From contig JANJGN010000075.1 of NCBI GenBank assembly GCA_026770705.1, positions 248,001-312,000 on the forward strand: a DNA stretch of 64,000 nucleotides. The letters are read 5' to 3'. Made by a program: the position numbers. The stretch is from Isurus oxyrinchus. Taxonomy: Eukaryota. Position 1 is the stretch's first letter; every line of letters starts with the position of its first letter. Shown here piece by piece: positions 51,001-62,000 of this stretch.

Positions 51001-54000
51001 CCCATGCTGCAGTTGAGTGGGTAGAGTGGAAATGCTAGGCTTGTTCTACTGAGAGCAGAAACAAAGTTTGAGGCGAGATTTGATGATGTTGAAAATTACA
51101 ATTCTTTTTGACGGAATGCATAAGAAAAAATTGTTTCCAGTGGTGAAAGAGTCGGTAACCAGAGGGCACACAGTTGAACATGATTGGCAAAAGAACCAAA
51201 GGGGCCATGATGGGGACAACATTCTGCACTAACAGCGATGTGTTATGATCTGGAATGCACCTACTGAAATGGAATTATGAACCTTTGAAAGATGATTGGA
51301 CAATTGCCTGTGCAGAGGGCAGAAAACATGTATATTAGGAATAGGGATTAATTGCAAAGCTCTACAAACAGGCTGGAAAGTGTACAATAAGAGGAAGGGC
51401 CTTCTCTGTACTGCATTGCATCATTCTCTGATTCCAGGGTAAAGGCAAGGTATTAGTCTGCATTTAATCAATTCATATTCTCTCATTTCAGTGGCTTTTG
51501 CTGTTCAGCGGAGCGCATCTCAATGTAAGTATCAACATTTCTCTCTGAAGTCCTGACATTGAATAATTAATGCCTTTACTGTTCAATAAATAAGATTGAT
51601 GTAATGGAAATGAGTTTGATTGCTCTAACCAATGGTGTTGTAACATTGATAACTACAAAGCAACATGCATTCTAGCAGTTGCCAGTGCGATAACGCAATG
51701 GAAAAATGTGCTTTTTGACACCTTATCCCATTCCATTTCTGTGCCGAGGATGCCGAGGCAGCAATCCAGTTTTCCACATGGTCACAGATCAATGCTCCAA
51801 TGAATGTTAAAATGATTTCAAAATGTATTTGAATGCCCCATTCAAAGTCCCCACATTTGCTATAAGGACAGAGGAGGCCATTGTATCCTTTATGTCTGTT
51901 CTGTCTTTCTATGCCAGCGTGGCTGGACTATTGGTTCTCTCCTTTGATTAGTTTTGGTTACATTACCCTTAACTACATAAAGTAAACAGGAAACTATCAA
52001 TTTACCTGGGCTCTGGAGCTATTCTGCATTAGTATGTTCAAATATTTCCTCCACTCAGTGCTTTCTGTCAAAACCATCATTGGAAGGTGTTGTTTCACTT
52101 TGGCATTTATTTCTGCTAGTTCTGCACAAGGAACTATTGGACACAGAATCGCTCTATCCCGTCCAGGAAACAGCTAATTTACCTGAAACACTTCTATTTC
52201 GTCAATTTATCTTCTACGCTCAGCATTGTACATGTAGACTGCTGTCATAATTCACACCAAGTAGTCTGGAACTTTTTCTCTAATTCTTCAGAGGTCTAAT
52301 CTCACAAATGTCGCCCCTGTCCACTCAGCCAAGCCTGCGCCACCATCGAGAATTTTTCAATGGATCAAATTGAGCAATTGTCGCTTTCCATCTCGAATCT
52401 TGGCTCACTCAGTTAAAATACAAGCGTTATTCATTTCTATGCACTCTCTTTTCCTACTAGCTTTGACTAAGACCTTGTTCAGTAAAGTCGCACCCCGTTC
52501 TCCTGGTGGCAACTTTTCCCTGACACACCGGATCTGTTTCTGTCGCACTGCAGTACTTATTCTGAGCGTTCAATACCCTTTAATGGTCCCTTGTCACCTT
52601 CCCCTCCATCCAACACCATTATTCACACTTTATTTTGTATAATCCGTAGTTGTCCACCCAACACCAATTCCCTCTGACAGACTCACAGCAACACCAGTTT
52701 GCTTTCATTTATATAGCGGCTTTAATGGAGTATCACGGCCCAAGGCGCTTCACGTGAACCAGCATGAAACGATATTAGACACCATGTAACGGACGGAGAT
52801 TTTAGGGCCGGAGGCCAAAATCTATGCCGAACAAGCAGGTATGAAGGTGTATCCTAAAGTAAGGCAGGGAAAGGTGACACAGTGCAGCGAGGAAAGCCCA
52901 AAGCTTCGGGCCCCCAGGCAGCTGAATACGCCAATTGTGGAGCAATGGAAATCTCAAGCGGCCGGAACAAGTGGAGCGCAGAGATGACGGAGTGCAGGGG
53001 TGTTTGGAGGAGATTACACAGAGAGGCTTCGAGGGCCATGGGGGGGATTTCACAACAAGAATGAGCTTATTGTGAAATCTAGGCTTCCCTTCATGGGCTG
53101 GCGACGTGGGAAAATTTACTTCTCTTTGAACCGGTGTCATGTAACAATGGAGCTTATTGCGAATGGAAAGAGCAGACAGCTGATGTTTAGTTAATTTCAA
53201 GTTTACACCCGGTGGAATATGTGGGTTTCGTAAATGTGCAGGTGGAATAGACATGGCTGCAGGTGACAAGAGCAGATCAAAGGACGCGGAGGTGGAATCA
53301 GGTGATGCCACTGAGGCAGATATGAGTTCATAGTGATGGAGCGTGCTAGGTCAACTCAGGGTCAAAGGTGGCACTAAAGTTGTAAAGAGGCTCTCTCAAA
53401 GCCTGATTTTGTCCAGGGAGCGGGATGAAGTCGATGGCTTGGAATGGGGCCACTGGGGTGAGGGCTAAGTGTCTGGGGGGTCTAATCCCACGGCCTGCTT
53501 CCCATCAGCATTTTTGGTTTAGCAACACAACACCTGCTGCATCGCCTCAGAGGCACTCAAAATCAGATTCTCAAAGGCAATGAGGGATGGGCAACAATTG
53601 TCAGCCTGGCCAAATGCAATCACTTCAGAATGATTGAATAATTCTTCTGTTTCACAAGGGCAACTCCGTTGTTCGAATTCAAATCCACATGGTTTAAAGA
53701 AGAATTTCATTATCTTTAGTCACATTTTCTCCTCGGCCAAATTGACTATAAATATTGAAAGCTCATCAAACAAACTCTTCCATTCACTTCTATGCCAGGG
53801 TAACATTTCTGATCAAACGTCCAAATTGAAAGACAGCTCCAACTGATTTTGTTTCTTTGGCGTGACTATTTGATTTCCAATATCTCAAAAGTAGCTGCTT
53901 GCAACGCCCGGAGTTACTTAAACCCATCATGTTACTTCAAATATCACACTATTTCTCAGTTTACAAATCACTAAACATCATTTTGTTCCAACTCATTTCC

Positions 54001-59000: not shown

Positions 59001-62000
59001 GCATCTAACATCGCCAAAGAGCAAGGCTGTGACCGTGACTACGAGAGGTGAGTGACAGAAAACATAGCTTGTCAACATGATTCTTCGCTGGGCTTGGCAC
59101 ATTGACAAATTAAGGTCCTTTTATCGAAATGAAACGGTCACTATTCGGGGGCAGGATTGTTTGTGAAAACCATTGACTTCATTGCTCAAGTCCTGACACT
59201 TTCTCTGAAAGAATGGGCTCTGAATTCACTCGCTGGGCATCAGGTGCAGGTGCAAGTGTTGAGATGGGAAGCGGAGGAAAGCAGGAGGAGGGTGTGAGCA
59301 GGCAATCAACAGCTGAACGATCCTATCACTGAGTGAGGGGGCATCCATTGTTGGATGAGATCATGGCACATCCCGGGAATGGGTTATGCTCTTTCTGATA
59401 ACATGTTTGGCCCGAGTGCCCAACCACGACCAATGAGCCTGTCAGGCATTAGAGGCATCCCATCAAAAATACCACATGTTGTGGGGCAGGATGTGCCGTC
59501 CAATCGTTTCACTGTTTGTCTTTAATTCTCCACATTGATGCTGGCACTAACTGCCTTTGTCATGGACTATCTTCATTCATGCCCTTAATAAGAATGTGGC
59601 ACGCTATCCTAAGTCAGAAGCTTGTGTGATCAACCCCAGCACTAGAAATGAGAGCCATCACTTAGGCCGGCACTCCCCCTGGTGCCAGTTTTGAGCGAGT
59701 GCTGCATTTTCGGAGGCAGATGTCAATGCTCCAGGGCCTGAGCTCCATAATCCAGGCAGACACTTACCCGGTCCCTGCGAGATTGTGTGACGTCCCCTAA
59801 TTAAATAGGACATTAAAACGAGTGCCCAGTCCACCATTCCATGTTGAGGTATTGCAAAACGCTCTATTGCTGTGAGTCAAATCTTTGGGATCTTCGCTTC
59901 GGTATCCATGGGCCAAACATTCATCTTGAAAGAACATCACTGAAGGAAAAACCACATCACTGAAGGAAAAAGCACATCACTGAAGGAAAAAGCGCGCTGG
60001 TTTTCCCCGCCACGAATTGATTTCTGTTCATGCGATCATGCTCTCTTCAAATCTGCTTATGACTGTAGCTTATAGACTGATTAATGAACTCACTTCGGTC
60101 ATACTTTCGCAGCCGTACAGCTGTTGGGGAAGGCCGAGTTCCTCATTGGCCTGTATAAATGTGTTTGCTTATCCTCCTTCCTTCGTCAGCAAATCCTGAT
60201 CTCTACATTTGTTAATTCTCAAACACCTAGAAACCCGGTGTCTCGACACAGTTCAGTTGATGTGTTTTTACCCTGCTGCTGTACATGGAAAAGCTCTGAT
60301 CCATTTCTAATTGTTCCCTCAATTAATTTTACCACAGGTCCGCTAAAAATCCCAGTGATATCTCTTGATCAAACCACAGGGGTGTATGCAGCAGGAGAGA
60401 CAATCAACATGACCTGCTCTGTGACCGGTGATAATCGCAATAAAATGTTTTATTTTTATAAAGGGTATCAACAGTTGTCCCCTAGTCCAATCATCACAAA
60501 TACCAATTCTTTAAGATTCCCGAATGCCAGTCCAAGCAACAGTGGACAATACCAATGTCAATATAGAATTACCTTCCAGAGCAGGCACTTGGATTCCAAA
60601 TTGAGCCAAGCTGTAACGGTGACCATAGCAGGTGAGTGACAGGGAGCAGAGACTTCAACATTTCTAATTATTGTGTTGGCTGTTTGAAATAATCAATGAT
60701 TCATTCACTTAAAATGTCCCTCATTAAAAATAAGCGGAGAGGGAATCCAAATGTTCTGCGACCTCATTCCACAATTGTGCCCAATGTACCCGCTGTATTT
60801 TGACTGTAATTGCAGCAGCTGGGGTGGGCAGGAGTGGAAAGCAGGTGTATGGTGTAAGGGGCCAGTCAGTAGCTGAAGTGTTCTGTCGCTGGGGGAGGCC
60901 AGCGACCATTGGCGGTATATTCCACAGCCTTAATTGGGATTATATTAGGCACATTATAAACATCACAGATCCTTTCCACACTCCGGTGTTGAATGGTATC
61001 TTCATTCAGTCTCATTGGTTTATTTCCATACTTAAGCTTCCTTCAACTAGGAGAAAATTCCCAGCTCCTCCAATCTCTTTGCAGAACAACGTTGGTATGC
61101 AAAGACGCTGGAGAAGCTGGAAATTTTCTCGTAGAGCAACGAAGGTTAAGTGAGTTTTTCATAGAGCTTTGCAAAATCATTACGAGCAAGATAAAGGAAA
61201 TAAGGAATAAAAGTCAGTTTCGAACTTTGAATCAATAGTTGCTAACTCTTCAATTCCAATTCCAGATCTTCCCGAACCAGACATATCTGTGGACTCTAGC
61301 GCTGTTCTTCTGGGTGGAGCTGTCACATTTAACTGTACAAGCCCCGGGGACAATCCCATCATCGCATTTTACCTATACAGAGAAGGAGATGTGAATCATG
61401 ATGGGTTGAAGTCTGCTGCTTCAGGGAACAATTCTGTCACCTTCACCATCAGGAATATCCATCACTCTGAGATAGGAGATTACACCTGTCGCTATGAAGC
61501 GCTGCTTAACGGAAGAAAGCTAGCCTCAGCTCTGAGTGACCCTGTGCACATCACTGTAACAGGTGAGTGTGGCTCACAATCAATATATCCATCTAACCGT
61601 AAGAAAATGTGCTCCTGTTTAAATTTCATTCTGTGCCATTTCCTGACTACAGTAACTAGCTCACTTAACAAATAAAAGCAACAAGAAAGTAGAAATTTGA
61701 AGACAAAAATGAAAAGGTAGGAGCTCATTTTGTATTTGATACAGATCCCATGCACACAAGGCCTATTTGGGTGATAATATTTGCTTTAAAGTCTTCAAAA
61801 TATACAAATAATGACATAACGTTAATGTTGATTAATCTGTTTATACCACAAGAAGAGTCAGCAAGCGGTGAAAGAAAAGTTACAGATGGTTCTCTTGGCA
61901 GCAGGGATTGAAACAAAAAACATCAAAGTTGAGGACAGAGTTTATTGTCTGATGTTGTTCAACTCAATATTATGTCCAAAAGTCTTTAAACTTCCTAAGC

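What the first reader, a model, noticed from the sequence alone, without database searches (positions are those of the whole stretch)
51492..61562. LRC-type (LILR/KIR/OSCAR/A1BG-like) multi-Ig receptor gene in a probable cartilaginous fish
Seen: a 33-nt phase-1 leader mini-exon splicing in frame to four open 294-297-nt phase-1 Ig exons. These lack the C-strand Trp (FxFYK, FYLYREG) and end SxxSx(P/A)VxxTxx. Established: a split leader with a 36-nt mini-exon and Trp-less C2 domains are hallmarks of LRC-family genes, whereas FcR/FCRL genes have a 21-nt mini-exon. Inference: member of an expanded, poorly characterised chondrichthyan innate-receptor family, informative for the origin of the LRC. 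This is the best candidate for an undescribed system in the window.
Basis: partly seen in the sequence, partly recalled or inferred. Interest (0 to 1): 0.75.

Follow-up and report, generated by a model that had tools for sequence, protein, structure and literature searches.

The report
Multi-Ig immune receptor gene, mixed FcR/LRC type
This is a real but incomplete gene for a leukocyte-type surface receptor made of a chain of immunoglobulin domains, whose outer domains look Fc-receptor-like and whose last domain looks like the LILR/KIR group, next to a decayed copy of itself.

Summary
Their motifs are as described.

- a fifth, dead copy at 56367-56642, with a lost acceptor and an 18-nt deletion;
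- two intronic exon relics;
- a decayed paralogous gene at 27.0-33.1 kb.

The 33-nt mini-exon (51492-51524) has strong splice signals and a compatible phase. No ATG exon was found, and one such motif pair per strand is what chance gives in 64 kb. It remains a candidate only.

The family assignment is only partly right. The last exon (E) is LRC-like by three methods: PDB sequence search, Foldseek and Atlas features. Exons C and D lean to FCRL5/FcR. A profile of A-D scores FCRL5 and LILRB1 domains equally. A Trp-less C strand also occurs in FCRL5, so it is not diagnostic.

The best reading is a member of the FcR/FCRL-LRC superfamily with a mosaic, teleost-LITR-like architecture, evolving by birth and death.

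Transmembrane and tail exons, synteny and host taxon could not be determined here. The spliced model was not joined or searched.

The parts
51492..51524 (+). Candidate 33-nt second leader (signal-peptide) mini-exon, phase 1-1. Unverified.
   Evidence: Y-rich tract + cag upstream, gtaagt downstream; the only open pair of this kind on the + strand; no ATG exon found. Frame 0 reads a more signal-like peptide (WLLLFSGAHLN) but cannot join exon A in phase 1 with this donor.
54106..54402 (+). Ig exon A (297 nt), most distal domain present.
   Evidence: Ig_2 30.3 bits; only weak LILRB4/A6/B3 matches (E 0.065-0.13).
55249..55433 (+). Relic of the 3' half of an Ig exon inside the A-B intron.
   Evidence: nhmmer E 2.3e-13; related to the 31.9-kb relic of the upstream paralogue.
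56367..56642 (+). Ig exon copy B: probable dead (skipped) exon.
   Evidence: acceptor AG lost, 18 nt shorter than C, conserved Tyr before the second Cys lost. Ig_2 17 bits, below cut-off; dN/dS against C is 0.82.
57544..57747 (+). Second relic of an Ig exon 3' half, the duplicate of 55249-55433.
   Evidence: nhmmer E 4e-10.
58754..59047 (+). Ig exon C (294 nt).
   Evidence: Ig_3 39.5 bits; best PDB match is FCRL5, E 5.8e-6.
60338..60631 (+). Ig exon D (294 nt).
   Evidence: Ig_2 45.1 bits. FCRL5 1.7e-5, CD32A and FceRI-alpha about 2.5e-3. Atlas FCRL2 cluster 0.95.
61266..61562 (+). Ig exon E (297 nt), LRC-like domain, last Ig exon in the window.
   Evidence: (Ig_C19orf38 30.8 bits against cut-off 23.2).
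54900..59212 (+). Tandem duplication of a unit of about 2.3-2.4 kb (intron + relic + exon): about 54.9-56.8 kb against 57.25-59.2 kb, 78-90% identical.
   Evidence: families D1, D2, D4-D6, D9-D12.
27009..33125 (+). Decayed upstream paralogue. Ig-exon relics lie at 27009-27259, 28100-28375, 31840-32089 and 32998-33125. The last is E-type.
   Evidence: frameshifts and stops; 52% identity to E over 44 aa; 56% identity to C over 45 aa.

Best explanation
The region holds the 5' and middle part of a gene for a type-I-style leukocyte immunoregulatory receptor of the FcR/FCRL-LRC superfamily.

Shown:
- One Ig domain per phase-1 exon.
- At least four usable domains (A, C, D, E), with one dead copy (B) that must be skipped.
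- The outer domains are closest to FCRL/FcR-type or unresolved. The last domain is LRC-type (LILR/PIR/KIR/CHIR/LAIR-like).
- The same order, with C-type exons followed by an E-type exon, occurs in the decayed paralogue 25 kb upstream. The mosaic therefore predates the gene duplication.
- The family evolves by tandem exon and gene duplication followed by decay.

Inferred:
- The protein sits on leukocytes and binds an unknown ligand with its distal domains.
- It signals through a tail with ITIM-type motifs, or through a charged transmembrane residue that recruits an ITAM adaptor, as FCRL, LILR and teleost LITR proteins do.
- Which of these applies cannot be said, because no transmembrane or tail exon lies in the window.
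- The architecture is most like teleost LITRs.
For: Exon anatomy and open frames.

Ig family.

Reciprocal PDB pattern:
- E matches PIR-B (7.9e-9, full length 1-98), LILRB2 (2.2e-7), LILRA2 (3e-5), CHIR-AB1 (6.8e-4) and LAIR1 (4e-3). No FCRL chain appears among the 60 rows shown of 286.
- D and C match FCRL5 (1.7e-5 and 5.8e-6). D also matches FceRI-alpha and CD32A at about 2.5e-3, CEACAM6 at 3e-4 and CEA at 2e-3. No LILR/KIR/PIR chain appears among the 60 rows shown of 265 for D, nor among the 45 matches for C.

Foldseek of the E model: LAIR1, LILRB4, LILRB1, LILRA5, PirB, CHIR-AB1, KIR2DL3, GPVI and OSCAR at TMq 0.70-0.80 and rmsd 2.0-5.1 A (5.1 for one LILRB4 entry, otherwise at most 3.3).

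Atlas leads:
- E: KIR3DX1-like 0.94, IGSF1-like 0.93, A1BG 0.92.
- D: FCRL2 0.95, SN 0.94, IGSF1-like 0.94, FCGR3 0.94.

Paralogue with the same exon order. Duplication.

LITRs are described as distantly related to FcR, FcRL and LRC receptors (PMC4810170, passages).
Against: - The profile of A-D does not separate the families. FCRL5 leads only through the sum of its eight domains; the best single domains score 15.7 bits for FCRL5 and 16.8 bits for LILRB1 D1.
- Exon A has only weak LILR matches.
- Titin, NCAM2 and Robo I-set domains also score well with E.
- The E model comes from a single sequence. One of the five models reached pLDDT 79.5; the others reached 34-52.
- Foldseek of the D model gave only V-set hits (SIRP-alpha, VNAR, nanobodies) and no FcR or LILR among the 44 rows listed.
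- No ATG exon was found, and no transmembrane stretch lies in 61563-64000. An intact expressed gene is therefore not shown.
- dN/dS is 0.5-0.8 between exon copies, which is compatible with relaxed constraint.
Confidence: 0.65

Rival explanations
1. Strict reading of the first reader: a bona fide LRC-family gene, a LILR/KIR/OSCAR/A1BG relative. All domains are LRC-type and there is an LRC-style split leader.
For: E is LRC-like by three methods. A has weak LILR hits. The A-D profile scores LILRB1 D1 at 16.8 bits and PIR-B at 4.8e-6. IGSF1-like clusters are near both D and E. The candidate mini-exon of 33 nt is nearer to 36 than to 21 (the 36-nt rule is recalled, not found in a paper).
Against: C and D on their own retrieve FCRL5, FcR and CEACAM chains but no LILR/KIR/PIR chain. 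The Trp-less C strand is shared with FCRL5. The mini-exon is unverified and not 36 nt. No LRC framework gene is in the window: 0 credible Pfam families in the 10 and 145 flanking ORFs scanned.
Confidence: 0.2
2. An FcR/FCRL-family gene, the cartilaginous-fish or other non-tetrapod counterpart of FCRL/LITR. The LRC-likeness of its last domain only reflects the common origin of both families.
For: FCRL5 is the best named match of C, D and the A-D profile. FCRL2 and FCGR3 clusters are nearest to D, and FCRL2 is also near E at 0.91. The C-strand motif is FCRL5-like.
Against: No FCRL chain appears among the 60 rows shown for E, whereas LILR, PIR-B, CHIR and LAIR1 do. No 21-nt mini-exon pair was found with the strict scan, although only a fraction of Xenopus FcR-like genes keep the 30/21 rule (PMC2413239, passages).
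Confidence: 0.3
3. A non-functional array: an unprocessed pseudogene or gene fragment whose four exons are still open only because decay is recent.
For: There is no ATG exon. B is a dead exon and there are two intronic relics. The neighbouring paralogue is plainly decayed. Exon pair B-C (82% nt identity) is no better conserved than the duplicated introns (78-90%). dN/dS is 0.5-0.8.
Against: Four exons of 97-98 codons are all open, each with canonical AG/GTGAGT sites, both cysteines and core residues. The paralogue's exons show what decay looks like here: frameshifts and stops in 4 of 4. Elevated dN/dS is usual for this class of receptor (my knowledge).
Confidence: 0.2

Closest known systems
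[quoted passage not shown]
   Same: Multi-Ig receptors whose domains show distant kinship to FcR, FcRL and LRC receptors at once (PMC4810170, passages). Here the distal exons are FCRL-leaning and the last exon is LRC-like. The locus is an expanding and decaying multigene locus.
   Different: Transmembrane and tail exons are not in the window. The detail that distal LITR domains are FcR-like and proximal ones LRC-like is recalled from the original LITR paper, which I did not see.
Mammalian FCRL1-6, especially FCRL5
   Same: Best named PDB relative of exons C and D and of the A-D profile. Tandem C2-type domains, one per exon. Trp-less YxFYxE-type C strand.
   Different: The 30/21-bp leader rule (PMC2413239) is not met: the only candidate is 33 nt. 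Exon E does not retrieve FCRL chains among the rows shown. No alignment of C or D to an FCRL5 domain gave a percent identity here; the matches are weak (best single domains 14.5-15.7 bits).
LRC receptors (LILR/PIR, KIR, CHIR, LAIR1, OSCAR, GPVI, FcaRI)
   Same: Exon E aligns over its full length to PIR-B D1 and LILRB2 D3. It has the FYLYREG C strand and the SDPVxITVTG end. It superposes on LAIR1, LILR, CHIR-AB1, KIR2DL3, OSCAR and GPVI at TMq 0.70-0.80.
   Different: 21-28% identity across these LRC hits. The distal exons are not specifically LRC-like. The mini-exon is not 36 nt and is unverified. No synteny evidence.
IGSF1 / A1BG (LRC-derived multi-Ig proteins)
   Same: Atlas feature search puts IGSF1-like clusters near both D (0.94) and E (0.93), and A1BG near E (0.92).
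   Different: These are leads only, with no alignment or E-value. Guselnikov 2019 (PMC6557307, passages) treats them as mammalian LRC derivatives.

Membership tests
LRC family (LILR/KIR/PIR/CHIR type) | Ig domains of the LRC type | tested here: inconclusive
   Met for exon E. Not met for C and D taken singly. A is weak. The A-D profile is undecided.
LRC family (LILR/KIR/PIR/CHIR type) | Split leader with a 36-nt second exon (rule recalled; not found in a paper) | tested here: inconclusive
   The candidate is 33 nt with strong splice motifs, but there is no ATG exon and the motif count equals chance.
LRC family (LILR/KIR/PIR/CHIR type) | Linkage to LRC framework genes | not testable with these tools
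   No credible Pfam family in 10 selected ORFs or in 145 ORFs of >=70 aa from 1-53.4 kb. Three chance-level hits, E 0.0015-0.0083.
LRC family (LILR/KIR/PIR/CHIR type) | Transmembrane segment with Arg/Lys, or ITIM-bearing tail | not testable with these tools
   No 19-residue stretch with mean hydropathy >=1.6 in 61563-64000. The 3' exons lie outside the window, or the product is secreted.
FcR/FCRL family | Domains of FcR/FCRL subtypes | tested here: inconclusive
   FCRL5 is the best named match of C, D and the A-D profile, and FCRL2 and FCGR3 clusters are nearest D. Single-domain scores equal those of LILRB1 D1, and E does not retrieve FCRL.
FcR/FCRL family | 30/21-bp pair of leader exons (PMC2413239) | tested here: not met
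   The strict scan for 18-48-nt phase-compatible mini-exons found no 21-nt pair on the + strand. The scan is insensitive to weak sites, and the rule holds for only a fraction of Xenopus genes.
Teleost LITR | Mosaic of FcR-like and LRC-like Ig domains in one receptor | tested here: met
   Reciprocal pattern against 15 and 17, and 30 against 31. The same exon order occurs in the paralogue.
Teleost LITR | Sequence grouping with LITR domains | not tested

The most novel reading that the evidence does not exclude
That would contradict the statements in print that FcRL molecules and C2-only LRC homologues are lacking in cartilaginous fishes (PMC4016189; PMC13337447 section 5.3). It would place a mosaic, LITR-like ancestor of both families before the split of cartilaginous and bony vertebrates.
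Probability: 0.3. Interest if true: 0.7.

Novelty: new member of a known kind. Interest (0 to 1): 0.5.

Why it matters
When the Fc-receptor-like and LRC receptor families arose, and whether they share a mosaic ancestor, is unsettled. Guselnikov 2019 (PMC6557307) states that it is uncertain whether fish families are LRC counterparts. Akula 2014 and a 2026 review state that cartilaginous fishes lack FcRL molecules, and the 2014 paper adds C2-only LRC homologues. A gene with both domain types in a lineage outside the bony fishes would make that question testable by domain phylogeny, synteny and expression.

If the host turns out to be a bony vertebrate, the gene is an ordinary member of a known, fast-evolving receptor class.

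Tried and rejected
- **ATG-bearing first leader exon.** I scanned ATG to GT in phase 1, using hydropathy and donor score. The strict scan covered 38.0-54.1 kb and the looser one 44.0-54.1 kb. Nothing convincing was found. The best-scoring donor candidate (46884-46905) encodes a non-hydrophobic heptapeptide.
- **A copy of the mini-exon upstream of the decayed paralogue.** None found by blastn with word size 9.
- **Frame-0 reading of the mini-exon.** It is more signal-like, but it needs a weak overlapping donor 4 nt downstream. It is noted, not adopted.
- **Transmembrane exon downstream of E.** None found. Three hydrophobic stretches at 44.1-44.9 kb downstream of the paralogue had no convincing splice context.
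- **Synteny markers.** Pfam on 10 and then 145 flanking ORFs gave nothing credible. Rfam gave 0 matches.
- **Foldseek of the D-type model.** Only V-set domains were returned, which is uninformative for family.
- **Literature.** No title in the listings describes FCRL-, LILR- or LITR-like genes of sharks. One search was badly posed (min_terms 2) and returned off-topic papers. 'Shark' hits in PMC4701786 were the surname Sharkey. The elephant shark genome paper's main text has no mention of Fc receptor, FCRL or LILR. PMC1472664 and PMC18309 are not held.
- **Generic adhesion-type I-set protein (titin/NCAM/Robo hits).** Rejected as the main reading. Those matches cover only the core (residues 14-80), whereas the LRC matches run over the full length including the G-strand motif. 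The exon plan of one domain per phase-1 exon fits the receptor class.

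
Full report
**Observation**

| Exon | Coordinates | Length |
|---|---|---|
| A | 54106-54402 | 297 nt |
| C | 58754-59047 | 294 nt |
| D | 60338-60631 | 294 nt |
| E | 61266-61562 | 297 nt |

- Each follows a pyrimidine tract and AG, and ends G|GTGAGT. Each is phase 1 at both ends.
- Their in-frame translations are free of stops and hold the two Ig cysteines.
- They lack a C-strand Trp (FCIYKD, FNFYKD, FYFYKG, FYLYREG).
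- They end in SxxSxAVxVT or SDPVHITVT.
- In Pfam, 5 of 5 exon translations match Ig_2/Ig_3 at E<=0.025, and 4 of 5 exceed the Ig_2 cut-off.
- The junction codons (Tyr, Glu, Gly, Asp) contain no stop.

I did not build, translate, fold or search the joined model.

- A fifth copy, B (56367-56642), is 276 nt. It is 18 nt shorter than C, has cTG where C has the acceptor cAG, and has lost the Tyr before the second Cys. It is best read as a dead exon that must be skipped.
- An nhmmer profile of the five exons finds two further relics of exon 3' halves in the introns, at 55249-55433 and 57544-57747.
- The same profile finds four decayed exons on the same strand at 27009-27259, 28100-28375, 31840-32089 and 32998-33125.
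- These four carry frameshifts and stops. Even so, the first is 56% identical to C over 45 residues, and the last is 52% identical to E over 44 residues.
- This upstream paralogue has the same order, with C-type exons followed by an E-type exon.
- A unit of about 2.3-2.4 kb (intron, relic, exon) is tandemly duplicated, about 54.9-56.8 kb against 57.25-59.2 kb, at 78-90% identity.
- Nei-Gojobori dN/dS is 0.82 for B-C, 0.61 for C-D and 0.51 for A-D.
- The locus therefore evolves by duplication and decay.

**The mini-exon**

- The 33 nt at 51492-51524 lie between ttctctcatttcag and gtaagt, and are open in the phase-1 frame.
- A strict scan required YAG after >=9 of 12 pyrimidines, a GTRAGT donor, and a length of 18-48 nt in multiples of three. 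It found 1 pair on each strand of the 64 kb. The + strand pair is this one, and it is open.
- From the site counts of that call (212 acceptor-like sites and 33 donors), I expect about 1.2 pairs per strand by chance. The motif itself is therefore not beyond chance.
- Its position 2.6 kb upstream of exon A on the right strand would arise by chance roughly 5-10% of the time (inference).
- I found no ATG exon with a phase-1 donor and a hydrophobic core in 38.0-54.1 kb (strict scan) or in 44.0-54.1 kb (looser scan).
- There is no copy of the mini-exon near the paralogue.
- In frame 0 the same 33 nt read a more signal-like peptide. That frame can reach exon A only through a weak overlapping donor.
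- The leader assignment stays a candidate.

**Family**

Exon E is LRC-like by three methods.

1. phmmer against the PDB (286 matches at E<=10, 60 shown):
   - PIR-B 7.9e-9 over the full length, LILRB2 2.2e-7, LILRA2 3e-5, CHIR-AB1 6.8e-4, LAIR1 4e-3, and FcaRI.
   - FcgRII chains score near 0.02, and no FCRL chain is among the rows shown.
   - Titin, NCAM2 and Robo also score, over the core only.
2. A single-sequence AlphaFold model (best model pLDDT 79.5, the other four 34-52) superposes on LAIR1, LILRB4, LILRB1, LILRA5, PirB, CHIR-AB1, KIR2DL3, GPVI and OSCAR. TMq is 0.70-0.80 and rmsd 2.0-5.1 A (5.1 for one LILRB4 entry, otherwise at most 3.3). Nanobodies are interleaved at rmsd 4.2-7.2 A, and CD32b scores 0.69.
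3. The Atlas feature search puts KIR3DX1-like, IGSF1-like and A1BG clusters nearest, at 0.92-0.94.

Pfam also gives Ig_C19orf38 (HIDE1) at 30.8 bits against a cut-off of 23.2.

Exons C and D behave the opposite way.

- FCRL5 is the best named match: 5.8e-6 for C (45 matches at E<=1) and 1.7e-5 for D (265 matches, 60 shown).
- D also matches CEACAM6 and CEA, and matches FceRI-alpha and CD32A at about 2.5e-3.
- No LILR, KIR or PIR chain is listed for either exon.
- The Atlas puts FCRL2 at 0.95, SN, IGSF1-like and FCGR3 nearest to D.

The separation is not robust.

- A profile of A-D gives FCRL5 9.4e-14, but only through the sum of its eight domains. The best single domains score 15.7 bits for FCRL5 and 16.8 bits for LILRB1 D1.
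- Exon A has only weak LILR matches, E 0.065-0.13.
- Foldseek of the D model (pLDDT 87) returned only V-set domains.

- FCRL5 domains also lack the C-strand Trp (LYRFYHEG in the alignments).
- 33 nt is neither the 30/21 rule of FcR-family leaders nor 36 nt. The 30/21 rule is kept by only a fraction of Xenopus genes (PMC2413239, passages). The 36-nt rule is recalled; I could not find it in a paper.

**Explanation**

The best-supported reading is a leukocyte immunoregulatory receptor gene of the FcR/FCRL-LRC superfamily with a mosaic ectodomain. The nearest described architecture is the teleost LITR family, which is said to be distantly related to FcRs, FcRLs and LRC receptors alike (PMC4810170, passages).

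- Ligand binding by the distal domains, and signalling through ITIMs or through an ITAM adaptor, are inferred from those families.
- The window ends 2.4 kb after exon E. That stretch holds no transmembrane-like segment, and from 62.4 kb it is CA-rich simple sequence.
- The pseudogene rival cannot be excluded without transcripts.

**Context, taxon and literature**

- No flanking gene was recognised. Pfam found nothing credible in 10 selected ORFs or in 145 ORFs of >=70 aa from 1-53.4 kb. Rfam found nothing. Synteny could not be tested.
- No tool here compares eukaryotic DNA, so the host could not be named.
- The interspersed repeats look elasmobranch to me. These are a repeat tail present 3 times and LINE-tail ORFs at 23648-24211 and 49792-50112. 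This judgement is from memory only.
- The contig is not human: identity to the listed LRC receptor chains, several of them human, is 21-28%.
- Akula 2014 (PMC4016189, passages) reports no FcRL homologue and no C2-only LRC homologue in sharks or lamprey.
- Guselnikov 2019 (PMC6557307, passages) calls the relation of fish families to the LRC uncertain.
- My 10 text searches listed no paper describing such genes in sharks.
- Supplements were closed. The large protein databases were closed, so I could not see whether automatic annotation of shark genomes already lists such genes. I expect that it does (recalled).

**Verdict**

- The Ig exons are real.
- The gene is a new member of a known receptor superfamily.
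- Interest is moderate. It would rise if a chondrichthyan origin and a supported mosaic phylogeny were shown.

Noticed in passing
window 14000-20600: Satellite-like tandem array of units of about 1.1 kb (at least 6 units, 60-85% identical). It is preceded by a 56-bp minisatellite at 13723-14149. The array carries positive GC skew.
   Followed up: partly
window 15484-15576, 19979-20071; also 28998-29020 (-): A 93-nt stretch is repeated exactly twice. Its 23-nt core occurs 3 times in the window against 0 in shuffles. It is probably the tail of an interspersed element. From memory it resembles elasmobranch repeats; this was not tested.
   Followed up: partly
window 23648-24211 (+), 49792-50112 (-), 21433-21750 (-): ORFs that look like C-terminal tails of LINE reverse-transcriptase genes. 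The copies at 49925-50164 and 24148-23907 are 72% identical. Pfam gave no match for the two ORFs scanned individually (23648-24211 and 49792-50112).
   Followed up: partly
window 47947-49282 vs 490-1959 (inverted): A dispersed repeat of about 1.3 kb in inverted orientation, 70-73% identical.
   Followed up: no
window 62400-64000; also 45650-46800, 500-1100, 55900-56100, 58200-58500: Long CA/TG-rich imperfect simple sequence that reads as Thr-His or Cys-Val runs. GC skew is -0.48 in the last 2 kb. It fills the space where the next exons of the gene would be sought.
   Followed up: no
window 29466-29921 (-): 152-codon open frame with no Pfam match. From memory it resembles the endonuclease part of Penelope-like elements; this was not tested.
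   Followed up: no
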